From: Eledone cirrhosa
Taxonomy: Eukaryota
NCBI GenBank assembly: GCA_964016885.1
Contig: OZ024747.1
Location: forward strand, 40,920,001-40,984,000
DNA length: 64,000 nt
Direction of reading: 5' to 3'
How positions within the stretch are numbered: the stretch's first letter is position 1; each line of letters begins with the position of its first letter. The position numbers and the translations under genes are program-made. Below are positions 1 through 60,734 of the stretch, one piece after another. A model generated the notes under the pieces. It saw nothing but the letters and a program-made list of their open reading frames with translations. It was not told the origin of the DNA and did no database searches.

Positions 1-319
1 CTTTCCATCTCTATAGTATCTATTGAGAAGGAAAGGGGAGAAGACGATGTTGACTGCGAGCTTTGTAGTCTTACCGCCTCTCCACCACCATTATCGTTGG
101 ACGCAGCATTCATAACGTAATCAAACTTTTACAATATTTTTTCCAAGATTCGATGGAGAAAAAATTTTTCAAACGAATATTTCGAAAATGAGTTGACCCA
201 CCACCTGAAGGTCCAGACGGGGAGTCAAGTTACACAATAATATAAAATTTAACTGAAAACTCACGTTTTTTTCTTACATAAATTAACGGAAACTTCTCCG
301 CGAAGTTACACACGTCTGA
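1..319 (-). mobile_element. 5' end (5' UTR plus ORF1 start) of a Tx1-clade LINE copy running off the window edge
   Basis: Near-identical to 7458-7777 of the full-length copy (gcagcattcataacgtaatc ... cgaagttacacacgtctga). Followed directly by the GATA tract. Confidence 0.9.
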
Positions 320-324
320 TAGAG

Positions 325-389
<65 letters not shown>

Positions 390-396
390 TATAGAT
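320..396. repeat. (GATA)n tract between Tx1 copies 1 and 2
   Basis: Seen directly. Equivalent tracts lie at 1582-1648, 1902-1935 and 7784-7863. Confidence 0.95.
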
Positions 397-1580
397 ATGT
401 TTCTTTTATTTGCCACTAGGGCATCAAAAGTGGGACAAGTACAAAGGGGGGAGTTTACACAAAAAGGCGTCCTCAATAAGGAGGAGGCAATAACAAAATA
501 TAAAAATAAAATAAGATATAACAAAAAATAAAATTTTTAACAAAATCCTCAATAGAGAGGAGGCGCCTTGGGGGGTCGCACACACCCCCGAAAAAAGTGT
601 GCAACCCTTTTCCTCAGGAGCACAGAGAGGGGGTGCTCCCTCGTTCCTTCCTCTTTTCCACCTACAGGCTTATGTAAAGAGAAGGCCCATTCACACGGGC
701 CATTCTCGCCACTTTCACCCACCTTTCATAAAAACGACTGGGGTGCAGCACCTCTCTCTCCATCCTGATCCTTCTTCCGAAATGATATCGGAAGAAACGG
801 ACCAGTTGTTGGCCAGAGAGAAAGGTGCCTGACCTCAGTCCTTTCAGACGCGTCCACCATACAACCTCTTTCGCCATGGCTATTACGCACAGAAACACCG
901 CCTCTGCTTCATCTTTGAAGGGGGGAGGCGGCTTGATCATTACAATAGACTCGGTGGTCAACGGGATCGGTCCCACCCTTGACAGCAGTTGTTCGACATA
1001 GCCCCACAGATCGGCTACGCCCGAGCAGTGTACCAATGCGTGTGCAACGGTTTCCTCGTCGCACACGCATCTGGGACAGATCTTTTTAGCGGGGTACCTA
1101 CCCGGGCGCCCGTGTCTGTAGAGCCTTTCTCGAACGGGTAAAGCCCCTCGGTAGCACTGCCAGGCCAGGGACTTCTGGAAGTTGTCCATAGGTCCCGGGC
1201 TGAATGTCCTACCGAACAGGCTGGCCAGTTCGTCCTCCTCCATGTCTAGGGCTTCTCCGAGGGCGTCGTCGCACCTGCTGCGTACCAGCCCTCTATAGAA
1301 TGTTGCGGTGGAGTCTCCACTGATAACCGGATCCGCCTGCCAGAGGGCGGTAAGCGCCTGGGCACACTCAGTGTGCCAGGCGCCCAGTTTTCTCGGTCTT
1401 TGCTTGACCCAGGATTGCAGCTCGGTGAGTGAGACGAGTCTGGGAAAGGTTCGTCTCACAAACGAGGCCCACACCGGTTGTCCGGTGAGGAATACGTAGA
1501 GGTGCCGTAGCCTTAATGCGTGTTTACGCATCATTAGCCACGGCATCCCCAGCCCTCCTTTCGAAGGGTGTTGACAGCAG

Positions 1581-1581
<1 letters not shown>
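397..1581 (-). mobile_element. 5'-truncated Tx1 copy of a divergent subfamily (ORF2 C-terminus plus 3' UTR)
   Basis: 662-1580 encodes CCQHPSKGGLG...CPRC...ETVAHALVHC...SLYISL, homologous to but diverged from the ORF2 end at 2173-3090. The 3' UTR ends AATAAAAGAAAC on the minus strand and runs into (TCTA)n. Confidence 0.92.
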
Positions 1582-1648
<67 letters not shown>

Positions 1649-1649
<1 letters not shown>

Positions 1650-1901
1650 TGTTTCTTTATTAGCCACAGGGGCACAAAAGAAGGGCCAAATATAAATGGG
1701 GAAGTGTACATACAATAAAAACGTGTAAAATACTATCACAAATGCAATTTAAAAATCAATCGATTTTCCCCAATAAAGGGAGACATTTAATATGGGTAAC
1801 ACATACCCCCGAAAAAATGTGCAACCCTCATCTCCAGGAGTACGAAAAGTGAGTACCCCCTTCCTCTCTTCCTCTTTTTCTTCAACCTACAGGCTGATAT
1901 A
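1649..1901 (-). mobile_element. Very short 5'-truncated Tx1 copy (3' UTR plus last codons of ORF2)
   Basis: Closely matches 1936-2186. Flanked on both sides by GATA repeats. Confidence 0.9.
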
Positions 1902-1902
1902 T

Positions 1903-1936
<34 letters not shown>

Positions 1937-2172
1937 TTCTTTATTAGCCACAGGGGCACAAAAGAAGGGGACAAATACAAAGGGGGAAGTTTACATACAA
2001 TAAAAACGTGTAAAATGTTATCACAGATGGAATTTAAAAGTTAGTCGATTTTCCCCAATAGAGGGAGACAGTTTATATGGGTAACACAGACCCCCGAAAA
2101 AAATGTGCAACCCTCATCTCCAGGAGTACGAAGAGCTTGTACTCCTTTCCTCTCCTCCTCCTTTTCCTCAAC

Positions 2173-5100
2173 CTACAGGCTGATATAGAGAGAAGGCCCA
2201 TTCACTCGGGCCATTCTCGCCACTTTCACCCACCTTTCATAAAACTTGCTGGGGTACAGCACCTCTCTCTCCATCCTGATTCTTCTTCCAAAGTGGTATT
2301 TGAAAAAAAGAATCAGTTGTTGGCCGGAGAGAAAGGTGTCTGACCTCAGCCCTTTCAACCTTGTCCACCATACAACCTCTTTCGCCATAGCTATCACACA
2401 AAGGAAAACCGCCTCTCCTTCGTTTTTGAAGGAGGGTGGCGGTTTGATCATGACAATGGACTCGGTGGTCAACTGGATTGGTCCCACCCGCGACAATAGT
2501 CGTTCTACATAGCCCCACAGGTCATTGACGCCCGGGCAGTGTATGAATGCGTGCGCCACGGTTTCTTCGTCTCGCACGCACCTCGGACAGATCTTTTTTG
2601 CAGGGTCCCTGCCCGGGCGCCCATGTCTGTAGAGCTTCTCTCGAACTGGTAGAGCTCCTCGGTAGCACTGCCAGGCCAGGGACTTTTGGAAGTTGTCCAT
2701 CGGTCCCGGGCGGAAGGTCCTACCGAACAGACTGGCCAGTTCATCTTCCTCCACGCCTAGAGTTTCACCGAGCGCGTCGTCGCACTTGCTGCGGACCAAC
2801 CCTTTATAGAATGACGAAGTGGAGTCTCCACTGATCGCTGGGTCCGCCTGCCAGAGGGCTGTGAGCGCCTGAGCACATTCGATGTGCCAGTCGCCCATTT
2901 TCCTCGGTCTCTGCTTGACCCAGGACTGCAGCTCGGTCAGCGAGACGAGTCGTGGGAAGGCTCGCCTCACGAACGGGGCCCACACCGGTTGTCCGGTGAG
3001 GAATACGTAGAGATGCCGCAGCCTGAGCGCGTGTTTGCGCATCGTCAACCACGGCATTCCCAGCCCTCCGTTAGAAGGGTGTTGGCAGCAGATGGATCTT
3101 CTTACCAAAGGAGCCCGCCTCTTCCAAAGGAATCGGAAGAGGGCGCGCTCCATTTTGGCGAGCGTTTTGGCTGGACAAGGCACGACGGTCAAGCGGTAGT
3201 AGATGGCGGACGCTATAAAAGTGTTCGCCACCTCCGCTCGACCTTTCAAGGATAGTTTGCACTCGGCCCACTTCTGGGTGAGTGCAAACACCTTGGCCGT
3301 CACTTCGTTCCAGTTCTTCTCCACCTGGAGGTCCGGACCAAACCAGACCCCGAGCAGCTTTACCGGTCCTTCCGTCCAGCGTCCGACGACGCCATCGGAA
3401 GGCATCGGTCTGCCTCTCCACGATCCGAGTTGCAAACCGATGGACTTGTCCCGGTTCAGCTTCGCTCCTGTGAGACTTTCGTATTCCTTTAGTAAGGTGC
3501 CGACTTCCTCGATTTGCGAGGCGCTCGACACCATTACTGTCACGTCGTCGGCGTAGGCCGACGCCGCTTTCCGCAGTCCCGGTTCCAGAGGGATGCCCTG
3601 CAATATCTCCAGCTTCCGCAGTAGTGGCTCGAGAGTCAGTACGTACAGAAGGGAGGAGAGAGGGCATCCCTGTCGAATGGATCGCGTAATATGGAACGGC
3701 TCCGAGAGGTAGCCGTTCACCTTGACCCTTGAGCAGATGTTGCTGTTGTGCATTGCAGCAATCCAGCCCCTGAACACGGGTCCGAAGCCTGCCGCCTCGA
3801 GCACCGCATCCAGGTAACGATGGTCAACCCTATCGAAAGCCTTAGACTGATCCAAGTTGATCAGGGCCCCACCGAAGCCGGGTTTACACCCTACCCTCTC
3901 TATGATGTATCGCATGAGGTGGAGGTTGTCGTGTATGGACCTGGTCGGGATCGCGCATGTCTGCGCTTCTCCCACCAGGTTCTCGACGACAAGCGCCAGC
4001 CTCTTTGCCAACACCTTGGCCAAAATCTGTAACTCTGTGTTTAGCAGAGTTATGGGCCGGAAGTTGCCTATGTCATCCCCCTTATTCTCGTCCTTCCTGA
4101 TTAGTGTGACCACGCCCCCGGTTACAGAACTGGGAATTCTCCTGTTCTGTTGCCAGTTGCAGTAGACCGCTTCCAGGAGACCGGAGAATAAGTCCGGCAT
4201 TGCTACGTAAAATTCGTAGGGTAGACCGTCGAGACCTGGAGATTTGCGTTTGCCGCATTGGCTCAGCGCGTCCCCTATCTCAGTGGCTGAAATCGGCTTT
4301 TCGCAGAACTTCGCCTCACTGTCCGAGAGTCGCGGTAGGCCGTCGAGGTATGGACCGAAATCCATAGCCTCTCCCGGCGCGCCGCTCCCCCCGAACAGCC
4401 GAGCAAAGTGCTGCTGAAAAGCCGCACACATCTGCTTCGGCTCACGTATCACGCGTCCGTTTTGGTCCTTCAAAGACCGAATCGTGGACTTGTTGCCACT
4501 TTTTGCCTCCGTCACCCGGGCCCAGCCAACAGCTTTGGCTCCCTCGTTTCCCAGAGCACGTATTTTGCTTCTGACAACGCAGCCCTCGTGCTTTGCGTCG
4601 AAGAACTGGTCCAAGGCCGTTCTCGTTGCTAGCACGCTGGCTACGTTGCCACTTCTAATTGCCTCTTCTACTTTATCTACCAGTTCCTTCTCGGTTCTAT
4701 TTCTATCTAACGCTAATTCTTTACTAAAAACTATCGAGTCTAATCTAACTGCCCTCTTGAGAGAGTACCACCATCTGTTGTTGACAATGGCCCCTGTCAA
4801 GTGCTGTTTAACTAAAGTGCTAATCCGTCTACTGTAGGCTTTGCTTGTCGGTAACGACAAGTTCAGCTTCCAGTAGCCGGGTCCTTGTCTATGGGTTCTA
4901 TCAAGGTTGGCCATGCAGGTCACTAGTTTGTGATCTGAATAGGCAACCATGAACATTTGTGGACAGCTTAACATGTCCCTATCCTTATTTCTAACTAGAA
5001 CCCTATCTAGGTACGATCTAGATGTTCCGCTACGATTACTCCACGTCCACATTGGCGCAGTCGGAAAATCTAGTCGATATCTATCGGCCAGGTCAAATCG

Positions 5101-5614
5101 GTCGATTAACTGTTTGAGGCTGTTACACCCCCCTTTGTCGGGACATGCTCCCACATAGTCCCAACGTGCATCTAGGATTCCATTCCAGTCCCCCACTAAA
5201 AGCAAGGAGCGGGACGTTCCCAGAAAAGTCTCTAGACGTTTGAAGAAGTCTGGCCGCGGTGTCCCGGATGGGGCATATGCGGCCACCAGCCTGAAGGCTC
5301 CACCTTCACTACCGTCAACGTCTAGGACCACCAGTCGACCCTCCGGGTCCAGATGTACCGTCTGTGTTACGCGGCCCAGGTGTTTCCGCAGCAAAACGGC
5401 AACTCCGCCCCCACCCACCCCCCGGTTGACAGAGAGATGCGTAGATCTCAAAGTCATCGAAGATGGGGGCCAGCTGTCGCTCGCCGTGGATCCTGGACTC
5501 GCAAATGGCTACCACATCCAAACTGTGTGACCTGAGGTCGTTTAAGAGTTTGCCCTGTTTCCAGGGCATCCCCAGGCCGCGTACGTTCACACATCCATCT
5601 CTTATATTGGCCAT
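2173..5614 (-). CDS. ORF2 polyprotein (AP-endonuclease, reverse transcriptase, C-terminal Zn finger), ~1146 aa with one frameshift near 5420
   Basis: The N-terminus MANIRDGCVNVRGL..DVVAICES (frame 5315-5614) joins GVAVLL, AYAP, VGDWN, SYLDR, SDHK (APE), KSPGLDGLP, FRPITLLN, LDQSKAFDRVDH, QGCPLS, YADD (RT) and CPRC..ETVAHAFIHC in frame 2173-5457. Removing one G from the G6 run at 5418-5423 fuses the frames. Confidence 0.92.
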
Positions 5615-5647
5615 GTTGGTGCTGAAAAGTTAAAAGAGGAAAAGAGA

Positions 5648-7558
5648 TCACTCACCCTTCGCCTCCTGGGGACCAGGCCGCACGATTTCCATGGGGGTGT
5701 TGGAGGGGTTGTCTGGATGGGTGGTGGTTTCCGGCGGGGTGGGGACGCAGATGTTTGGTGGGGTGGGGTCTGGTGGAATGGGGGTGTCTGGGGTGGGGAG
5801 GCATTTGAGAAGGACGCGGTTGAGTGGTTTCACGCAGGAATTCCCCACATCCTTCTCAAATGTTTCTTTTAGGGACCTATAAGTTTGTATAGGGACCCTA
5901 ATCAGTTTTAGGTTCAGTTTTTTGCTATTTTTTATAGAGTGGGCGAAAGTTTTCCCTTCGGTGAAAACCGAAGGGTCGTTCGTGATGGTCTCCATTAGTG
6001 TTTTGTTTTCAGTGTTTATGTAAGTGTAAGTGTAATTTTCTTGTGTTGTGTTTGTTTTTGTCTGTAGTTCTTGTGTGTGCTTTCGTTTTGTTGTAGGTAT
6101 TTTGTTTTCAGGAGGTGGGGGTTTTGTTTGTGATATTTTTGTTGTTTGTGTTGGTGGTTGTATGTTTGTGGTAGTGTTTGCTGGTTTTTTGCTTTTGTGA
6201 TGTCTTTTCTTTCTTTTCGAGCGATGGGGTTCTCCCTCGTCTTCACTGGGTGATGGCGAGATAGCCTCATCTGTTGTATCGTCTGTGTGATTGGGGAGGG
6301 GTATGTCTTGGGGAGCTGTTGTGTCTGTATGTGATTTTGCAGTGGTTTTAGGTGGAGTGGGGTTGGGTGGGACTGTGTTTGTTGTGGTTATTTTTGTGTG
6401 TTGGTGTTGTTGTGGTGGTGTTGGTGGTTGTGTTGTTTTGATGGGTGTCGGCAGAAGAGCCTTTTTTTGGTTCATTAGTTTAGGACAGGAAGCCCTCAGG
6501 TGACCCCTGCTAAAGCAATGGTAACATGAAGGCCGCCTACCCTCAACCGAAAGGTTTATGTAGGTAAGTCCGTCCAGGAGTACACGCTGTGGGATCATAG
6601 CTATTCGCTCTGGGCTCATTTGCACCAGAACTTCAATGCTAGTCCCATTGAATACATCTCTGGGGGACTTGCCTACTGACAGTATTCTGTCTTCATCAAA
6701 ATTGATGAAGCCGCACAGTATCCACCATATGTTCACCTTTGGTGTGACACTTGTGATTCTGATCTTTTGTGTCCTTTTTCCCATGTATGTAGGGAAAAAG
6801 GTGTACAGGTTGGATACAATTGGCGACACAGAGTAATTTTGGGCCGTCAATTGATCCTTCATCAGTACCGAAATACTCCCAAAAAGTTTGCTTCTTTGAA
6901 TGAATGCAATATCATTCATTGAATCTTTGAAAACCAGTTCAATATCTTTCTGTGACAATTGGACTGGTTTTCGGGTAGAATTGGAAACTGTCCTAAAAAC
7001 TATCGTTTTGAGCGCAGTTTCCTTGCGAATTTCTACCGGAGAATTGATGCTGAAAGCACCATTTTTTTCGAAGGTGACATATCTCTTAGCGTCCTTTAAA
7101 AGGTGTTCAGCATTTGTTATGTCGAGATATATCAATTGTTCTTTCTTTTGAACTTTCTCCGCAAAGGAGATTTTTGGTTTCTTTGTGGAATCCGTATTGG
7201 TGGTGTTGTCATTATTGTTGTTATTCTTGTTGTTATTCTTGTTGTCACCGATGTTGGTATCATCCGTATTTTCCTTGGTGTTGTTGTTGTCTTTGATGCT
7301 GGTGTTATTGGCGTTGTCTTTATTTTTTTCTTTGTTGTTGTTATCATTGTTGCTTTTATCATCATTATTGGTTTTGCTGTTATTTTTGTTGTCATTGAGC
7401 TGTTTGGTGTCATTTGTGTTGTTTGGATGTGAATTCGTTTTTTTATTTTCATTTTGTCTTTCCATCTCTATAGTATCTAGTGAAGAAGACGTTGTTGACT
7501 GCGAGCTCTGTAGTCTTACCGCCTCTCCACCACCATTATCGTTGGACGCAGCGTTCAT
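5648..7558 (-). CDS. ORF1 nucleic-acid-binding protein (636 aa) with CCHC zinc knuckle
   Basis: Intact ORF directly upstream of ORF2. Contains CYHCFSRGHLRASC (CX2CX4HX4C), an Asn/Lys-rich N-terminus and a Pro/Thr-rich C-terminus. Confidence 0.88.
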   Translation of the reverse strand: MNAASNDNGGGEAVRLQSSQSTTSSSLDTIEMERQNENKKTNSHPNNTNDTKQLNDNKNNSKTNNDDKSNNDNNNKEKNKDNANNTSIKDNNNTKENTDDTNIGDNKNNNKNNNNNDNTTNTDSTKKPKISFAEKVQKKEQLIYLDITNAEHLLKDAKRYVTFEKNGAFSINSPVEIRKETALKTIVFRTVSNSTRKPVQLSQKDIELVFKDSMNDIAFIQRSKLFGSISVLMKDQLTAQNYSVSPIVSNLYTFFPTYMGKRTQKIRITSVTPKVNIWWILCGFINFDEDRILSVGKSPRDVFNGTSIEVLVQMSPERIAMIPQRVLLDGLTYINLSVEGRRPSCYHCFSRGHLRASCPKLMNQKKALLPTPIKTTQPPTPPQQHQHTKITTTNTVPPNPTPPKTTAKSHTDTTAPQDIPLPNHTDDTTDEAISPSPSEDEGEPHRSKRKKRHHKSKKPANTTTNIQPPTQTTKISQTKPPPPENKIPTTKRKHTQELQTKTNTTQENYTYTYINTENKTLMETITNDPSVFTEGKTFAHSIKNSKKLNLKLIRVPIQTYRSLKETFEKDVGNSCVKPLNRVLLKCLPTPDTPIPPDPTPPNICVPTPPETTTHPDNPSNTPMEIVRPGPQEAKGE

Positions 7559-7782
7559 AACGTAATCAAAATTTTACAATATTTTTTCCAAGATTCGATG
7601 GAGAAAAATTTTTTAAATGGATATTCCGCCCCTGAAGGGGCGAAAATGAGTTGACCCACCACCTGAAGGTCCAGACGGGTGGTCAAGTTACACAATGATA
7701 TAAAATTGAACTAAAAACTCACGTTTTTTCCTTACATAAATTAACGGAAACTTCTCCGCGAAGTGACACACGACTGATAGAG

Positions 7783-7863
<81 letters not shown>

Positions 7864-7949: not shown

Positions 7950-8292
7950 GTGAGAAAGTGGCGAATTGGCAGAGTCATTAGAATTTCGGATAGAATACTT
8001 TGTAGCATTCGTTCCGGTTCTCTACTCTCTGACTTCAAATCCCGCCGAGGTCAACTTTGCCTTTCATCCTTTCGAGGCCGATAAAAAAATAGTACGAGTA
8101 TAGTACTAGGATCGATTCTTCCTCCATATCTCTTTCTCATTTCTTTTCTCTCACTCTCTATCTTTCTATGGAAGGCATCTGCTGTATTCAGACCTGGGGA
8201 GTAGATGGGTTCTGCCAGGTTACAAAATGCTCAAGAAACATTGTATATCATTATGGTGCCCTAAAACTCCATCAAGCGTTACAGGTCTATAC
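7950..8292 (+). mobile_element. tRNA-derived SINE family 1, long-tail variant (also 28610-28950 and 58685-59020 on minus)
   Basis: A-box-like tggcagagtcattag, B-box-like ttcaaatccc, conserved core gcctttcatcctttcgagg..gataaaa. The 3' extension (gtattcagacct...) is shared by all three copies. Confidence 0.7.
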
Positions 8293-10006
8293 TTTCGTAT
8301 GAAAAGGAAAAGCAACGTGTTGCTGTGTTGCTGTGATAATCAAATGTTAGTATATGATTCATGTCTATCTCCGATTGATGACTTGTATGAGTGTTTTTGG
8401 TAAGAGATGAGTTACAGAAAACATTAGATTTTTCACTCGCTATTTACAGCGTATGGAATCTATTTAAACAGTATTTCCTTTGGAAGCCAATCCCTATTGT
8501 TTGCCAAGAGGCGGCTTTGGAGTTGTGTTAGTATTTGATATTTTCAGCTGAATGATGTGTGCATTACTTAAATATGTTTACGCTTTTAAACAGTTTCACT
8601 GATATGTAGAAAACAAATGAGAAACACATTTACTGTCTAATAGAAAATTAAGAATGGATTTCCTAAACATAAGCAAAACGACATAGTCGAGGATTTTTAC
8701 TTTCTCTGTTAAACTAAGGAAGCTGTTTTGTGATCGAATCATGATCTAGGTCATAACAATGAGAAAAGATAGAATCAAAACAAAGACATACGATAACATT
8801 CTTGTCTAGTATTGGAATCCGATATTCAGACCGACTGTACAAGTATAATTGAACAAATATATCATAATGGAACAATATATAAACTCTTTAGTATATCTTT
8901 CTGCAGCCAAGAATACAGTTTTGTATACGAAATAATCGCAAGGTAATATATAAGAAAGAAAACAAAATTCATAAAAATACTACATGTAAGGAAAAGAAAA
9001 TATAATTAAAAGCAAAACAAAACGTCATGCCACATCTACGAAACTTTTACTTAACTTCGCTCTCAGTTTTTCCTTTCCATAACTACAAATATTAGGAACA
9101 GCCTTCACCCAATTTCCCTTTAAAAGGATGAAGGTAAACATCAGTTAAATGGACCTCGTAGTTTAACCCGACAAAATATTTTTTTTAATGGTTTCCAGAT
9201 TTGTTATTTTCTCAAACCAAACTATCCTTCTTGATTTCATAAATTTTAGTCGCGTTAATGTAATATCTTTTGCTTAGTGAAGCATTACGGGAACTTTTAT
9301 CTCTCAGTAATCATGAAACGAAACCAAACCTTCCGTGTAAAAAAGCAAGAATTTAATGTAGTTATGTTCTTCTATCATATAGGTTTATTTCTTTCATTTA
9401 ACTCAGTAAGAAAAAAAAAGAAGATATAGAAATAAACTAAACAATTGCGTGAATGATTCTTTTTTCTTTTTCTTATTCTTAAATCGATTGTTACTGCGAC
9501 CGAATGGGATATGGCTAAGCTAGTGTGCTAATGTTATGGAAAAAGATCTGGGCGATAGAAGGAAAAACAAATCACTTGTATAGAAATTTATAAGCGAAGA
9601 TGTTTTATATGGAGAGGGATTGCACATCACTACGTTGTTTATTATTGTTTACGTTGTTTCAAGTGAGTGCAAATTTAATTCCTATATTCGTTAGAAACAT
9701 CATTTCAGTGAGATTTATATAGCAATATAATACTGCTTTCACTAAACAAAAAAGGTGAAATAGAGAAAATTCAATTGACTCCAATATATTGTTAGCAGTT
9801 ATCGAATTTGGAATGTTAAAAGTTGGAGTAGACATCTGTGTCATGTGATCTCAGTACAAGGATAAAGTAGATTACATTTAGCAAGGCGTTTAGGGGAACA
9901 AAAACAAAACTTATACACATATATACATGAATATATACATACATGCAGCATATATATAGATAGATAGATAAATATACACGGGTGTGTATGATTGTGTATA
10001 GAAGAT

Positions 10007-21500: not shown

Positions 21501-22624
21501 ATCGGTGGTCGATTGGCAATATCGGTAGAGGGTCTGACGCCATGCTAGGGCGGTGGATTGGCAGTATCTGTAGAGGGTCTGACGCCATGCTAGGGCGGTG
21601 GATTGGCAGTATCGGTAGAGGGTCTGACGCCATGCTAGGGCGGTGGATTGGCAGTATCTGTAGAGGGTCTGACGCCATGCTAGGGCGGTGGATTGGCAGT
21701 CTCGGTAGAGGGTCTGACGCCATGCTAGGGCGGTGGATTGGCAGTATCTGTAGAGGGTCTGACGCCATGCTAGGGCGGTGGATTGGCAGTATCTGTAGAG
21801 GGTCTGACGCCATGCTAGGGCGGTGGATTGGCAGTCTCGGTAGAGGGTCTGACGCCATGCTAGGGCGGTGGATTGGCAGTATCGGTAGAGGGTTTGACGC
21901 CATGCTAGGGCGATGGATTGGCAGTATCGGTAGAGGGTCTGACCCCATGCTAGGGCGGTGGATTGGCAGTATCGGTAGAGGGTCTGACGCTATGCTAGGG
22001 CAGTGGATTGGCAGTCTCGGTAGAGGGTCTGACGCCATGCTAGGGCGGTGGATTGGTAGTATCGGTAGAGGGTCTGACGCTATGCTAGGGCAGTGGATTG
22101 GCAGTCTCGGTAGAGGGTCTGACGCCATGCTAGGGCGGTGGATTGGTAGTATCGGTAGAGGGTCTGACGCTATGCTAGGGCGGTGGACTGGTAGTATCGG
22201 TAGAGGGTCGGACGCCATGCTAGGGCGGTGGTTTGGTAGTAGCTGTAGAGGGTCTGAGCCATGCTAGGGCGGTGGATTGGCAGTATCGGTAGAGGGTCTG
22301 ATGCCATGCTAGGGTGGTGGATTGGTAGTATAGGTAGAGGGTCGGACGCCATGCTAGGGCGGTGGATTGGCAGTATCGGTAGAGGGTCTGATGCCATGCT
22401 AGGGTGGTGGATTGGTAGTATAGGTAGAGGGTCGGACGCCATGCTAGAGCGGTGGATTGGCAGTATCGGTAGAGGGTCGGACGCCATGCTAGGGCGGTGG
22501 ATTGGTAGTATCGGTAGAGGGTCTGACGCCATGCTAGGGCGGTGGATTGGAAGTATCGGTAGAGGGTCTGACGCCATGCTAGGGCGGTGGATTGGCAGTA
22601 TCGGTAGAGGGTCGGACGCCATGC
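21501..22624 (+). repeat. 45-bp minisatellite, ~25 units, derived from the 5' head of SINE family 1
   Basis: Unit gggcggtggattggcagtatcggtagagggtctgacgccatgcta. The last unit continues into a SINE body (22625-22772). The same head is single-copy at 47047-47090 (minus). Confidence 0.92.
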
Positions 22625-25166
22625 TTTGCAGCAAAGAGTTACGTCTCTTTATGGTTTTAGTTCAAATCCTGCCGAGGTTAACTTTGCCTTTCATCCTTAC
22701 GAGGTCGATAAAATAAAGTACCAGTAATGTACTGCGATAATTGCTGGCCTTGTGCCTATAGTAGAAACAGTTATGAAAGCGACGTCGATTCTTTGAACAA
22801 AACAACTGCAACCTAAATTGGCATTATCAAATCCTGAGAAAATATATAATAGCAATCAGTAACACCAAAACAAAGTAAAAGAAAACATATCAGAGACAGT
22901 AGAGACAGTGAGACAGTCACCAAGTAAAACCCTGAACAAAAGGCACCAGGAAATAATATCCTAACTTGCTTGTTGATATTGTTTAGCAAGCACACAGAAA
23001 TTCTGACGAAACTATTTAATAACACACAAGAAAGGAAAAAAAAACAACAGTTGACTGGGTTAGTGATGGCCAAACTACATTAACTCTTAATATCTAAAGA
23101 AACAGTAAAACCTAATATCTACAAACACATCTACAATAATTCATTTACAGAGTACAGAGGAGATGCTACAAACGCATATATAGATGTAAACTTTGTTCAT
23201 GAATATCCGTCAGTTTTGGGGATGACTGTCCCAGTTGTTCATACAATGGAAGAACTTGCAAGTTGATGTGTATTCAACAGATATGTACACCAGCTGATGT
23301 AGTGCACAGGGAAATTCAGTGTCACACAGTGCGAATTACAGGTAGAATTCATTTTTGCCAACTGTGTAAACTGGAGCGACATGAAATAATGTGTTTTCCT
23401 GAGGGACACAGCCGACTGCCACGATGATCGGGAGCAGAATACTCTAACTTCTAAGCCATGCGACTTCACAGCTATAAGTATAAATTATTAACAAAATCAT
23501 AACCTTAGACTACAGAAGAAATGAAGGTCTGGGCATGACATCGATTTATTACCAGAAGACTTTCTGTGATCTCGAAATATGAGCAAGGCAGCCCCAATAG
23601 TAATCATGCGCATTAAACATAAATACATAGCAAATTTCCCCATCTCTAAACGAAGACAAATATTTTCTCAAGAGGTTTCCTTCTCTTCAGCCTTTTTTCT
23701 GTTTGACATTAACACTTTTAAACAGCAGGTTAAACCAGGGTGGGTATGGGTACAACTGCTACCGCAAGACAATCAAATATTTTTTTGGTAGGTCACCTCA
23801 AAATATACGCCATATATGGGGAAACAGGCAGAAATGTTGCCACATACAAGACCCGGCTTCACCAGAGAAACTAATATGTTATTCGGTCTACAGAAATTCA
23901 TCAAAGACAATATGAAACAAAGAAAAACTAATTAAGATTAAGAACACTAATTTCATGATACATTATGAAACATAGATAAAAGAATTTGGCAAAACACGAC
24001 TGACAAAGACTTACGAACACTTAGCAATCATTTAGCAAGAGACGGTACAACAAAAGTAAATGAAAGAAAAGATTAAGAAGAAATATTATAGATACATTAA
24101 AACATGGTTAAATGCAAAACAGGATAATATCCATCAATATCCAAGCTGAACTGTAATAAGTTATAGTTACAATATTCTCAAATGGATGCTAAATGAATTA
24201 CGAAGACTTCACAGAATGAAAACCCCAATAATGACTCCATTTAGAATACACCAATTGAATTATGATACAGAAATACATTTACTATGGATACAAGTAGACG
24301 TAGGCATGCTGCAACTATAGTATATTCATTGTAGGATTACAAAGTTTTCAAGTAAAACATAATGGAATTTAATATAAATACGTAGAAAACACGAACAGTG
24401 CGAAAAACTATTTTCTAAAAGGTATGAAACAAAGTTTGAAGTGACAGACATATGTGAGAAGAAACGAGAAACAACAACAATAGCAACAACAGCATCAACA
24501 AAAATGTTTACAAAACCCAATAAAAAGTTAGTTAATCGTGGGACTACAGAATACTATACTAAAATATTGACATGGAAAGCCATGACGTGTTCAATAACAG
24601 AAAGAACTGAATTAGAGAAAATATATTAAGAAACGCCATAGCATTGATTGAGGTGTGAAAGACACAAAGCTGAGATCAAAGGAAGTTTTCTATTTTGGAA
24701 CAGTAACAGAGCGTTCTCACTAAGAACCACCAAAACTTGTAATGACGCTGAATACAAGAAATAACTACAGGTTATGTAATGGTTAATAAGAAACAATGCC
24801 CAGCTAAGTGAAGAATAAATACATCTCCATAGTTAGATCTTTCATAAAATGAGATGTATGCCAGAATTATGAAATACCAGCATGAAACGGTTCAGTATAG
24901 GCATACGCGATAAAATGTCTGAGAGAATGATAAATGGTTCCTAGTTAACTATACAACACTGTTATAATAAAGTAGATACATAATTTAAGTGAATATAGTT
25001 CTAGGATGGTATAACAGGTGTTATAACTTAACACTATATCTATATAATTGTATGTACATATATATATGTGTGTGTTTATACACTCACGCAATGAATGTAC
25101 ATTCACTTTCCCATTCTTCCATGTATATACATATATATGCATATACATATATAACTAGATAAGCAT

Positions 25167-56603: not shown

Positions 56604-58148
56604 CAGTCCTTTTAACCTCGTCCACCATATAACCTCTTTCACCATAGCCATAACACATAGGAAAACCGCCTCTCCCTCGTTTTTGAAGGAGGGTGGCGGT
56701 TTGATCATGACAATAGACTCGGTGGTCAACTGGATTGGTCCCATCCGCGACAATAGTCGTTCTACATAGCCCCACAAGTCGGTAACCACCGGGCAGTATC
56801 CAAATGCGTGGGCGACGGTTTCCTCGTCGCGCACGCATCTCGGACAGATCTTTTTCGAAGGGTCCCTGATCGGGCGCCCGTGTCTGTAGAGCTTGTCTCG
56901 AACTGGTAGAGCTCCTCGGTAGCACTGCCACGCCAGGGACTTTTGGAAGTTATCCATTGGTCCCGGGCGGAAGGTCCTACCGAACAGACTGGCCAGTTCG
57001 TCCTCCTCTACGCCTAGAGTTTCTCCGAGCGCGTCGTCGCACTTGCTGCGGACCAACCCTCTATAGAATGTCGAAGTTGAGTCTCCACTGATCGCCGGGT
57101 CCGTTTGCCAGAGGACTGTGAGCGCCTGAGCACATTCGATGTGCCAGTCGCCCATTTTCCTCGGTCTTTGCTTGACCCAGGACTGCAGCTCGGTCAGCAA
57201 GACGAGTCGTGGGAAGGCTCGCCTCACGAACGGAGCCCACACCGGTTGTCCGGTGAGGAATACCTGGAGGTGCCGCAGCCTGAGCACGTGTTTGCGCATC
57301 GTCAGCCACGGCATCCCCAGCCCTCCGTTTGAAGGGTGTTGGTAGCAGATGGATCTTCTCACCAAAGGAGCCCGTTTCTTCCAAAGGAATTGGAAGAGCG
57401 TGCGCTCTATTTTGGTGAGCGTTTTGGCTGGACAAGGCACGACGGTCAAGCGGTAGTAGATGACAGACGCTATAAAAGTGTTCGCCACCTCCGCTCGACA
57501 TTTCAAGGATAGTTTGCACTCGGCCCACTTCTGGGTGAGCGCAAACACCTTGGCCGTCACCTCGTTCCCGTTCTTCTCCACCTGGAGGTCCGGACCAAAG
57601 CAGACCCTGAGCAGCTTTACCGGTCCTTTCGTCCAGCGTCCGACGACGCCATCGGAAGGCATCGGTTTGCCTCTCCACGTCCCGAGTTGCAAACCGACGG
57701 ATTTGTCCCGGTTCAGCTTCGCTCCTGTGATCCTTTCGTATTCCTCCAGTAAGGTGCCGACCTCCTCGATTTGCGAGATGCTCGACACCATTACTGACAC
57801 ATCGTCGGCGTAGGCCGACGCCGCTTTTCGCAGTCCCGGTTCCAGAGGGATACCCTGCAATAGCTCCAACTTCCGCAGTAGTGGCTCGAGAATCAGTACG
57901 TACAGAAGGGAGGAGAGAGGGCATCCCTGTCGGATGGATCGCGTGATATGGAACGGCTCCGAGAGGTAGCCGTTCACCTTGACCCTTGAGCAGATGTTGG
58001 TGCTGTGCATTGCAAAAATCCATCCCCTAAACACGGGTCCGAAGCCTGCCGCCTCGAGCACCGCATCCAGGTAATGATGGTCAACCCTATCGAAAGCCTT
58101 AGACTGATCCAAGTTGATCAGGGCCCCACCGAAGCCGAGTTTACACCC
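56604..58148 (-). mobile_element. Dispersed Tx1 copy truncated at both ends (RT to Zn finger, frame still open)
   Basis: Highly similar to 2347-3891. Ends at WWTRLKGL against (CA)n. (TAGG)n lies ~20 bp from the 5' junction. Confidence 0.92.
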
Positions 58149-60734
58149 GAATAATGTTTTTTCTTTTTTGATAGGTAGGTAGGTAGGTAGGTAGGTAAAA
58201 GGAATAAATCTATTGTCTAGAGAAATATGTAATAGATATTGTTCAACTTACCCCATCCGATAATGATACAATAGGTAAACTTGATCTTGTTGTGACGCAT
58301 CGCATGGACAATCATGAAATACAAATACAATCCTTCAACAAACATCCAAAAGAAACTAGACGTCGTGAAATACTGGAACAATGTCATCAACAGCTTACAT
58401 ACCCACTGAAAAATATATAAAGAATAATAACAGAAATTTTGGAGTTATCGTTGTATTTTTCTGTTTTACTAATATACTAATTTTATAAGAAAATTCTAAA
58501 TTTTCAATTACTTGAAAATAAAGAATTTAATATTTAGTTAAATATAAAGAAAAAGAAAGTAGCTAAATGAAAGACTATAATTGTGAGGAGATGAAGGGAA
58601 ATGGCAAGGATTATTAAGCAATGAAAGAAAGAAAAGGGGAAGAGGAGAGGATGTCACCGAAGTAATTCTGTTGTGTGTATGCATGCATAGGCCCGTAACT
58701 CTTGAGAGAGACGTGGGAGCGCCATATTGACATATGGCGTTCCTAGGCCATTTTAAAACTTGGCGGAGTCCAATCTCTCAAGGTCTGAATACAGCGGATT
58801 TCTTCCAGCGGAGAGAGAGAGAAGGCGAGGGGAGAAAATAGAAGTGAGAAAAAGATATAGAGGAAGAACCGCCTACAGTACTAGACTGGTACTTTTTATA
58901 TAGACTTTGAATGGATGAATGGCAAAATTCACCTCGGCGGGATTTGAACTCAGAGAGCAGAGAACCGAAAGGAATACCGCATAGCCTTCTATCCGACGTT
59001 CTAACGACTCTGCCATTCACAATATTGTGGGTATATATATATGTATTTAAATGTTCTAATGTCATTATAAACAGTTTTCTGATGTGACAAAACATTCAGA
59101 GAAAGATCATTTCAAATTAATTATCGTGGTTTCGGAGTTCTATTTATTAAGTGGCTTAATTTGAGACCGCGCGTTGAACGTAAAGCAATTTCATCGTTGG
59201 AATTCATCATTTTTACTATTAAAAACACACAAAAAGGTATTAAATTTACTTTCCAATTATTATTTATGAGAATGGCCCTGTCGCTAGAATCGCGATGAAC
59301 ATTTTTGCCACCATGAAGTAAATTAAAAGATGTGAGGGAAATTGCGCAGTTTTTGTATAATTTTTGTATGGTTAAAATGATTCTACCACGATATAATTGA
59401 ATGCTAGAAGTAATATCATTGGTATATTGTAGAATCTCGGAGGAATTTCTCTTTCTTATGTAGTTTATAAGAGGATATATTGAAGATTTGTTTCTTCTCT
59501 CCAGACTTTCATTCAAATGGACTGAATAATGCTGGTCAGTAATCCGCAAATTAGATTCCGATAAAGAAAACATTTCGGGATTCTGCGAGAGAAAAGGACA
59601 TCTAATAAGATTTAATGAAATTTATTATATGTTTACTATATATGAATAAATTAAGTTTCTGAAAGAAATCCGTTTTATTCAATGTCTTACTAAAATTATA
59701 GTGGTGGATATTTTCCGTAATATGTAGGTATAGGTTCCGCAGATTTTGGAAAATTATATAAGTGATGCGCTGATTCTATAAAACCGTATAAGGGTTCCAT
59801 GATAGTTGGAAAATAGTATAATTAATAAAGTAAGTTTGGGAATCACAGCTATAAGTTAAGTAGGTTCACACACATACAAATCTCTTGCGTATAGCTTCAG
59901 TACATCAAGACTAATCAGTAGTTACATTACTGTTTTCTCTTTTACATGGGTTGTGCCGATGCTGAAGCAGCGCTATTTTTACTTTTATTGGTACTGGATA
60001 CGAAATTCAAGAAAGCCAGATTCTATCTGATTGATAAAGTTTGATTTAACGGTCATAGAACGTTTCTTTTCTTTGGAAACATTTTCAGCTAAAACAAGTT
60101 ACAAACCACACGTTAAAATATTTATATAATTTCTGTTCCAATTGATATTTCTAGTAAATATACATTATTTATACATGCTGAAAATTCTATAAAACTGAGT
60201 TTCTAGATTTCGAAGGAATATGAAGGTAGAAATAAAAGCTGCATATATTTGTTGTAACTATTCATTTTCTTCAATTAGCTATATTTCTGTACCAGACAAA
60301 TTACATATTATATATTTATGAAAAATGACTACAGGCGTTTACAAAATATATATAATTTCAAGCATATGATTAATCTCACTTCCATCACAGGCGTATCAAT
60401 AAAATAAGGATAATTAATATACACTACTAATTACATGTTTCCCAGTGAAACGTAATTTCAGCTTAGTCAAAACCACTTTCGAATTATCATCGGCTGGATT
60501 AACAGATTTCTTAGACTAACTGACAAATATGTTGTAGTATTTGTCACGGCTCTTTGCGTTCAAATTCCTCCGAGGTAAATTGTGCCTTTCATCTTTTCGG
60601 GGATCGATACAATAAAGTACCAGACAAGTAATTAGATGGATACAACCGTCTTGCCACTCCCTCAAATTGCTGGCTTTCTGTCTAAATTAGCAATCAGGGA
60701 CGCTCCGTGGAACATCCACTTTAACATTTTATAG

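What the first reader, a model, noticed from the sequence alone, without database searches (positions are those of the whole stretch)
1..7863. Tx1-clade retrotransposon apparently specific for (GATA)n, stacked as a head-to-tail array
Seen: four co-oriented copies from at least two subfamilies, each separated by GATA repeats. 3' ends read AATAAA(A)GAAA(CAT) straight into (TCTA)n with no poly(A). Both intact 5' ends share the junction ...tctatctctctatcag. Established: Tx1 families target repeats (Kibi TC, Koshi TTC, Keno U2 snRNA, Dewa tRNA spacers). Inference: this is a strand-specific GATA-microsatellite-targeting family that repeatedly inserts into, and perhaps regenerates, its own target. 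I do not know of a described GATA-specific Tx1 but could not search.
Basis: partly seen in the sequence, partly recalled or inferred. Interest (0 to 1): 0.85.

Follow-up and report, generated by a model that had tools for sequence, protein, structure and literature searches.

The report
Octopod LINE family targeting GATA repeats
A young, very abundant jumping-gene family in what is probably an octopus genome inserts on one strand of GATA repeats and piles up there head to tail, likely because its DNA-cutting enzyme reads that repeat; this is a new target for a habit already known in related elements.

Summary
Observation confirmed. Four co-oriented APE-type LINE copies sit between GATA arrays: two full length (both damaged) and two 5'-truncated. 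Of 34 young 5'-truncated copies, 28 have (TCTA)n at the 5' junction, and none of 40 faces the other way. Genome-wide, 5,500 of 6,155 3' ends read GAAA-NN-TATCT. Eleven hand-picked target-site duplications (8-21 bp) all start at TAT and show no added repeat units, so the repeat is the target and not a tail. Targeting is a strong preference: (TA)n, (TC)n and lone TATCT sites are also used. Twenty of 37 youngest full-length copies keep both ORFs. A sister family (69% ORF2 identity) and a tRNA-like SINE use (ATT)n with the same 3' layout. The RT tree groups it with TX1-named fish proteins, apart from L1-like ones, as a branch of its own. Ten paper searches found no GATA-specific Tx1, but Repbase and Dfam could not be checked. 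This scan noted the same family several times on other DNA. Verdict: new variant of a known kind.

The parts
1934..7775 (-). Copy A: full-length subfamily-A element, 99.4% to an intact copy; 4-bp insertion near 5421 shifts the ORF2 frame, 6-bp in-frame deletion near 6414 in ORF1
5648..7558 (-). ORF1 of copy A (636 aa): low-complexity ends, CCHC knuckle, middle part resembling zf-CCHC / ZCCHC3-like RNA-binding clusters; no Pfam hit
2173..5614 (-). ORF2 of copy A: APE endonuclease, reverse transcriptase, zf-RVT (1,145 aa in intact copies; frameshifted here)
1934..1957 (-). 3' terminus: 3-bp stem / 5-nt loop, AATAAA, GAAA and two subfamily-specific bases, followed directly by the target; no poly(A)
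7776..7863 (+). (GATA)22 array upstream of copy A; the unit second from the element is the TCTC variant found at most young full-length 5' ends
1899..1936 (+). (GATA)9.5 spacer between copies A and B
1650..1902 (-). Copy B: 5'-truncated, 89.5% to subfamily A; its 5' junction shares TATATC microhomology with the array
1581..1649 (+). (GATA)17 spacer between copies B and C
398..1581 (-). Copy C: 5'-truncated member of subfamily C (ORF2 85% identical to subfamily A)
318..397 (+). (GATA)20 spacer between copies C and D
1..317 (-). 5' end of copy D, a decayed full-length copy (5,827 bp) that runs on outside the window and ends in GAAA-CA-(TATC)n
56604..58148 (-). Copy E: fifth, older fragment (93.7% to A), cut at both ends, with a (CCTA)n-TATC tract about 20 bp upstream of its 5' end

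Best explanation
This is a recently expanded LINE family, probably of the Tx1 clade, that inserts on one strand of (TATC)n microsatellites, likely because its APE endonuclease nicks the GATA strand at 5'-GATA^G-3' and starts reverse transcription there. Shown: orientation, flanks, fixed junction register, duplications of 8-21 bp that start at TAT, no poly(A), no added tail. Inferred: ORF2 protein grips a small hairpin at the RNA 3' end and starts copying at GAAA-NN, perhaps helped by pairing with a few read-through UAUC bases. The top strand is cut 8-21 nt further on. The cDNA end anneals to the upstream repeat through the repeat-like leader (full length) or through 1-5 nt of microhomology (truncated). 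Each insertion leaves target on both sides, so later copies land next to it in the same direction and build head-to-tail stacks.
For: 5' flanks: 28 of 34 truncated copies among the 40 hits have TCTA at the junction (the automatic count was 24 of 35 and five BLAST breaks were corrected by hand; 25 of 31 without tandem duplicates). 0 of 40 are in the GATA sense; background is 0.2%. Position-ordered sample of 30: 22 TCTA (one only probable), 5 not, 3 unresolved, 11 directly stacked on a relative. Genome-wide: 5,500 of 6,155 3' ends are followed by NN-TATCT; 330 of about 451 5' ends have three repeat units upstream. Eleven duplications all start at TAT right after NN, and the base before is C in 9 of 11; that base is not part of the primer, so RNA pairing cannot select it. 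Only 21 of 439 TATCT pentamers in host DNA lie in arrays, so repeat context matters. Microhomology at 20 truncated 5' ends averages 2.1 nt against 0.59 simulated. The 3' hairpin pairs in 59 of 60 cells of its three core pairs over 20 distinct ends. APE catalytic motifs are intact in all three families aligned.
Against: No biochemical data. In subfamily C only 14 of 30 have a clean TCTA 5' flank; 2 sit in (TA)n on both sides, 2 more in TA-rich sites, 5 at lone or degenerate TAT sites, 1 just beyond an array, 4 show no match and 2 ran off the locus. Three of 30 position-ordered copies are followed by TCTC. Three of 34 young truncated copies have no repeat or duplication at the 5' side. The duplications were hand-picked where flanks were unique, and six of the eleven lie in short arrays, where an upstream C is expected. 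The pentamer background covers only 164 kb with two arrays. The hairpin is short and few of its changes are independent. The APE hairpin loop differs little between the TATC and ATT families.
Confidence: 0.7

Rival explanations
1. RNA-guided choice: the endonuclease is loose, and the target is picked by pairing between the nicked DNA end and a short copy of the repeat that the RNA picks up by reading through into its own flank.
For: AATAAA lies only 6-7 nt before the junction, too close for normal cleavage there (10-30 nt, recalled), so the RNA probably ends inside the repeat. A variant repeat unit is inherited at the 5' end, so the RNA carries repeat-like sequence at least there. The hairpin loop of the APE is nearly the same in TATC and ATT families. 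PMC6007223 (passages) proposes such a role for RTE tails and cites it for R1Bm and R2Ol.
Against: The junction register is fixed at GAAA-NN whatever follows (TATC, TATA, TATT, TCTC). No templated units appear at lone sites, although a repeated RNA tail could prime in any unit. C is favoured upstream of the cut, also at three lone sites (L132, L139, L140).
Confidence: 0.2
2. Self-templated tail: the element inserts anywhere and adds its own (TCTA)n tail, as RTE, CR1 and L2 elements do; stacks arise by later recombination between tails.
For: 89% of 3' ends are followed by TATCT. Some tandem copies share one truncation point (L009/L010, L017/L018, L027/L028), which points to duplication after insertion. 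5 of 27 resolved copies in the position-ordered sample lack a 5' repeat.
Against: Truncated copies have TCTA at the 5' side too (28 of 34). At lone sites the 3' TATCT is the duplicated target with nothing added. Neighbours in stacks, as in this window, are mostly different subfamilies with different truncation points.
Confidence: 0.04
3. Short-motif nicking plus selection: the enzyme cuts any TATCT, and copies in arrays simply survive better or cluster by local re-insertion.
For: Lone TATCT, TATAT and TATT sites are used. About 57% of 3' ends are followed by about three units (3,525, slightly wider pattern).
Against: The youngest copies, 99-100% identical and least filtered by selection, are 82% in arrays against 4.8% of pentamers.
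Confidence: 0.06

Closest known systems
Kibi (TC)n and Koshi (TTC)n of teleost fish, Tx1 clade (PMC4494074 passages and section 15; PMC3812793 passages; Kojima and Fujiwara 2004 itself not held)
   Same: APE-type LINEs that insert into a pyrimidine-rich microsatellite strand.
   Different: Target is (TATC)n; host is probably an octopod; the RT forms its own branch apart from the fish TX1-named proteins (34-37% identity over the RT region).
Crocodilian Tx1-1_Crp group at (TTCC)n/(TTTC)n (PMC4494074 section 15)
   Same: Preference for a tetranucleotide repeat; passes the same >20% flank criterion.
SINEU / Tx1-Mar pair of crocodilians (PMC4494074 passages)
   Same: A SINE shares the target of a Tx1 family, as the ATT-ending SINE seems to here.
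   Different: There the target is a DNA transposon and the SINE head comes from snRNA.
Waldo (ACAY)n, Mino (AC)n, Dong (TAA)n (PMC3812793 passage)
   Same: Microsatellite-targeting non-LTR elements; Dong uses the same repeat as the ATT sister family.
   Different: Other clades (R1 and R4; recalled); Dong uses a restriction-like endonuclease (R4 clade, PMC4640811 passage), whereas this family has an APE.
L1-Tx1 families of Octopus vulgaris (PMC13282606 passages and supplement search: 80 families, 13 recently active with 421 insertions)
   Same: Young L1-Tx1 class elements in an octopus; relatives may be among them.
   Different: The text and the one supplement held mention no target preference ('GATA' 0 hits).

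Membership tests
Tx1 clade | ORF2 with APE endonuclease, RT and C-terminal zinc-binding domain | tested here: met
   PF03372, PF00078, PF13966; 1,145-aa ORF2 in intact copies
Tx1 clade | Separate ORF1 with a CCHC knuckle (feature recalled) | tested here: met
   638-aa ORF1 with CX2CX4HX4C; features match zf-CCHC and ZCCHC3-type clusters at 0.90-0.93; no Pfam hit
Tx1 clade | RT phylogeny inside Tx1, apart from L1 | tested here: inconclusive
   21-row tree: octopod clade and TX1-named fish proteins fall together against four L1-like rows at 95/96, in an open fork. References are automatically named proxies, no curated Repbase sequence, midpoint root
Target-specific family by Kojima's criterion (PMC4494074) | One sequence type in more than 20% of flanks | tested here: met
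   28 of 34, 22 of 30, 5,500 of 6,155
Kibi/Koshi group | (TC)n or (TTC)n target | tested here: not met
   TATC dominates; TCTC follows 3 of 30
Kibi/Koshi group | Clusters with Kibi/Koshi in the RT tree | tested here: inconclusive
   Separate from the clade that holds Tetraodon BAC82605.1; that this protein is Kibi or Koshi is recalled, not shown
L1 clade proper | Poly(A) tail and closeness to human L1 ORF2p | tested here: not met
   No poly(A) at the 3' ends read; 178 bits to human L1 against 530 for an L1-like fish protein
RTE/CR1/L2-type tailed LINEs | Repeat tail added at any site, random 5' flanks | tested here: not met
Any catalogued Repbase or Dfam family | Identity to a listed consensus with this target | not testable with these tools
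   Neither library is held
Endonuclease-determined targeting | APE nicks the target in vitro | not testable with these tools
   Needs a bench assay

The most novel reading that the evidence does not exclude
One octopod LINE lineage switches microsatellite targets (TATC versus ATT) through a short target copy carried on its own RNA ends rather than through its endonuclease. Target choice would then be inherited from the flanking DNA and be reprogrammable, and the same machinery would steer a SINE to the ATT repeat.
Probability: 0.2. Interest if true: 0.75.

Novelty: new variant of a known kind. Interest (0 to 1): 0.45.

Why it matters
Microsatellite-targeting Tx1 elements are known, but a 2013 review calls the mechanism not well understood (PMC3812793, passage). 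This genome offers a natural contrast: sister families at 69% ORF2 identity with different repeats, thousands of junctions, a defined cut position, intact young copies and a probable SINE partner. That makes endonuclease-versus-RNA targeting directly testable by domain and tail swaps. It also means that many GATA arrays in this genome flank retrotransposons, which matters for repeat annotation and microsatellite markers.

Tried and rejected
Literature: ten searches listed no GATA- or TATC-specific Tx1; most hits were seen only as listings. Kojima and Fujiwara 2004, a 2025 Nature paper on site-specific retrotransposons (DOI recalled) and Christensen 2000 are not held. The supplement of PMC4494074, with the target alignments, could not be read and may bear on novelty. 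Metagenome scan: 71 loci, all distant; their flanks were not examined. Expression: no RNA holder listed. Read laying gave contigs only; one contig of coded organism C joins two copies through a GATA spacer, a single record. Rfam found nothing credible on a SINE stretch. Spliced ORF1-to-3'UTR joins: 0 of 46 ORF1 ends in my loci, which were not chosen to find them. The 44-row careful tree did not finish (quick tree); I reran 21 of the 44 rows, leaving out long-branch and redundant rows. No structure or complex prediction was run.
Full report
Observation. The window holds four minus-strand copies of one APE-type LINE lineage separated by GATA arrays. Copy A (1934-7775) is full length and 99.4% identical to an intact copy, but a 4-bp insertion near 5421 shifts its endonuclease frame. 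B (1650-~1902) and C (398-1581) are 5'-truncated, and C belongs to a second subfamily. D (1-317) continues upstream as a decayed 5,827-bp copy. All 3' ends read AATAAA(A)GAAA, two bases, then TATC, without poly(A). A fifth fragment lies at 56604-58148.

What it is. ORF2 carries APE, RT and zf-RVT. ORF1 has a CCHC knuckle and resembles zf-CCHC and ZCCHC3-type clusters. The genome is 3.0 Gb, and the nearest named protein is from Argonauta hians at 67%, so the host is probably an octopod (inference). The family is large and young: 6,155 exact 3' ends and 451 exact 5' ends of the A type; the 40 scored hits to the last 304 bp are all listed at 100%. Among 37 full-length copies picked for a 5' end like copy A's, 20 keep both ORFs, 638 and 1,145 aa as a rule. 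In a 21-row RT tree the octopod families form one clade, sister to unnamed environmental proteins. That clade groups with TX1-named fish proteins against L1-like rows at 95/96 but stays separate from the fish clade. The references are proxies, so Tx1 membership is likely, not proven.

Target or tail. The queries held element sequence only, so flanks were not selected. Of the 40 hits, 6 are full length and 34 truncated. Of the 34, 28 have TCTA repeats at the 5' junction, 3 more have a target duplication starting at TAT, and 3 have neither. The automatic count was 24 of 35 before five BLAST breaks were corrected by hand; without tandem duplicates it is 25 of 31. None has the repeat in the GATA sense, and background is 252 of 128,728 positions. 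All 30 full-length 5' ends have TCTA upstream, two of them only one or two units. A position-ordered sample of 30, which includes older copies, gave 22 with TCTA (one only probable), 5 without and 3 unresolved; 11 sit directly behind a relative. Genome-wide, 5,500 of 6,155 3' ends continue NN-TATCT, 3,525 continue with about three units (slightly wider pattern), and 330 of about 451 5' ends have three units upstream.

The cut site. Where flanks are unique, duplications can be read. Eleven hand-picked ones are 8-21 bp and start right after GAAA-NN at TATC (9), TATT (1) or TATA (1), with C before them in 9. One more duplicates about 200 bp of an AC repeat from a TATCT start. No repeat units were added at these sites, so the arrays are target, not tail. 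NN varies by subfamily (TA, CA, CT, TC, TT, GT and others) and so belongs to the element. The implied nick is 5'-GATA^G-3' on the bottom strand (inference). Only 21 of 439 TATCT pentamers in 164 kb of host DNA lie in arrays, against 82% of young insertions, so more than the pentamer is read, or clusters attract re-insertion. Specificity is not strict: subfamily C also uses (TA)n and lone sites, and only 14 of its 30 copies have a clean TCTA 5' flank.

The two ends. Truncated 5' ends share on average 2.1 bases with the repeat phase against 0.59 simulated (20 junctions). Full-length 5' ends often carry one or two TCTC units in place of TATC, in register: 34 of 38 youngest, 58 of the first 100 listed genome-wide (hand count). 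The same variant on many chromosomes implies that the RNA carries at least 8 nt of repeat-like leader. At the 3' end a 3-bp stem with a 5-nt loop precedes AATAAA. It pairs in 59 of 60 core cells over 20 distinct ends, with two-sided changes in one ATT subfamily and in the SINE; it is short, and few of its changes are independent.

A sister target. About 7 kb upstream of the window, on the other strand, a related family ends GAAA-NN-(ATT)n. Of 29 other copies, 25 have ATT downstream and none TCTA; 8 of 16 resolved 5' junctions are ATT arrays. In a second set of 20, 14 show the conserved 5' end behind ATT (hand count). Its ORF2 is 69% identical to A and 67% to C, while A and C share 85%; its copies are 91-99% identical to their majority, so it is older. 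The APEs differ mainly at residues about 61-66 and 151-162, and little in the hairpin loop. A roughly 190-bp tRNA-like SINE ends in a matching hairpin, GAAAC and ATT; 50 of 68 such ends read CAATTAT (overlapping loci not removed). It is probably moved by the ATT family (inference).

Mechanism. Most likely is target-primed reverse transcription in which the APE picks the site and the protein fixes the start point on the RNA (0.7). The main rival is choice by RNA-DNA pairing (0.2): AATAAA is too close to the junction for the RNA to end there, and the APE loop barely differs between targets. Against it stand the fixed register, the lack of templated units and the upstream C. Stacks follow because each insertion leaves target on both sides; a few tandem pairs with identical truncation look like later duplications.

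Comparison and novelty. Known microsatellite targets are TC (Kibi), TTC (Koshi), TTCC/TTTC (crocodilian Tx1), ACAY, AC and TAA (PMC4494074 passages and section 15; PMC3812793 passages) and TG (PMC4640811 passage). GATA is not among them in what I read, and ten searches listed no such family. Octopus repeat papers list L1-Tx1 families without targets (PMC13282606 passages and supplement search; PMC8967140 passages; PMC9115989 passages, no Tx1 mention). Repbase, Dfam and the 2004 paper were out of reach. Earlier notes of this scan, read after my own tests, describe the same TATC and ATT families at other loci and in at least one other genome; they are not independent evidence. Verdict: a real, well-supported new target for a known habit, with a useful natural contrast.

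Noticed in passing
L118:42-3432 and L119:~8900-10000 (just upstream of the window, + strand): Head-to-tail copies of a sister LINE family that targets (ATT)n; abundant (3,573 candidates for its 3' end), older and mostly decayed.
   Followed up: yes
L079:6660-6870, L319:760-975, L119:8378-8560, window 7960-8110: tRNA-like SINE of about 190 bp whose 3' end mimics the LINE's hairpin and GAAAC end and is followed by ATT; likely moved by the ATT family. The window copy is partial.
   Followed up: partly
window 21507-22625: 45-bp tandem array (25 copies) whose unit matches the 5' head of that SINE.
   Followed up: no
window 58230-58400 (minus strand): Exon-like stretch with an FFWMFVEGLYL motif, recalled as typical of class B GPCRs, ending in a GT donor; copy E would lie in the following intron.
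   Followed up: no
L009/L010, L017/L018, L027/L028: Tandem copies with identical truncation points, in one case three copies with the same internal deletion; probably duplication between flanking arrays after insertion.
   Followed up: partly
   Followed up: partly
L003, L015, L024, L030, L145, L364, L382, L385 (3' flanks): Several different recurring sequences begin right after TATC arrays; probably 5' ends of further subfamilies with different 5' UTRs.
   Followed up: no
L371, L372, L376, L379: Copies with both ends intact but internal deletions of 0.15-4.3 kb.
   Followed up: no
L084 (C1): Target duplication of about 200 bp, mostly an AC repeat, starting at TATCT; far longer than the usual 8-21 bp.
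   Followed up: partly
coded runs X5, X6: Two other organism labels hold 44-48% of the sampled words and near-identical pieces; related species, mixed samples or transfer cannot be told apart.
   Followed up: partly
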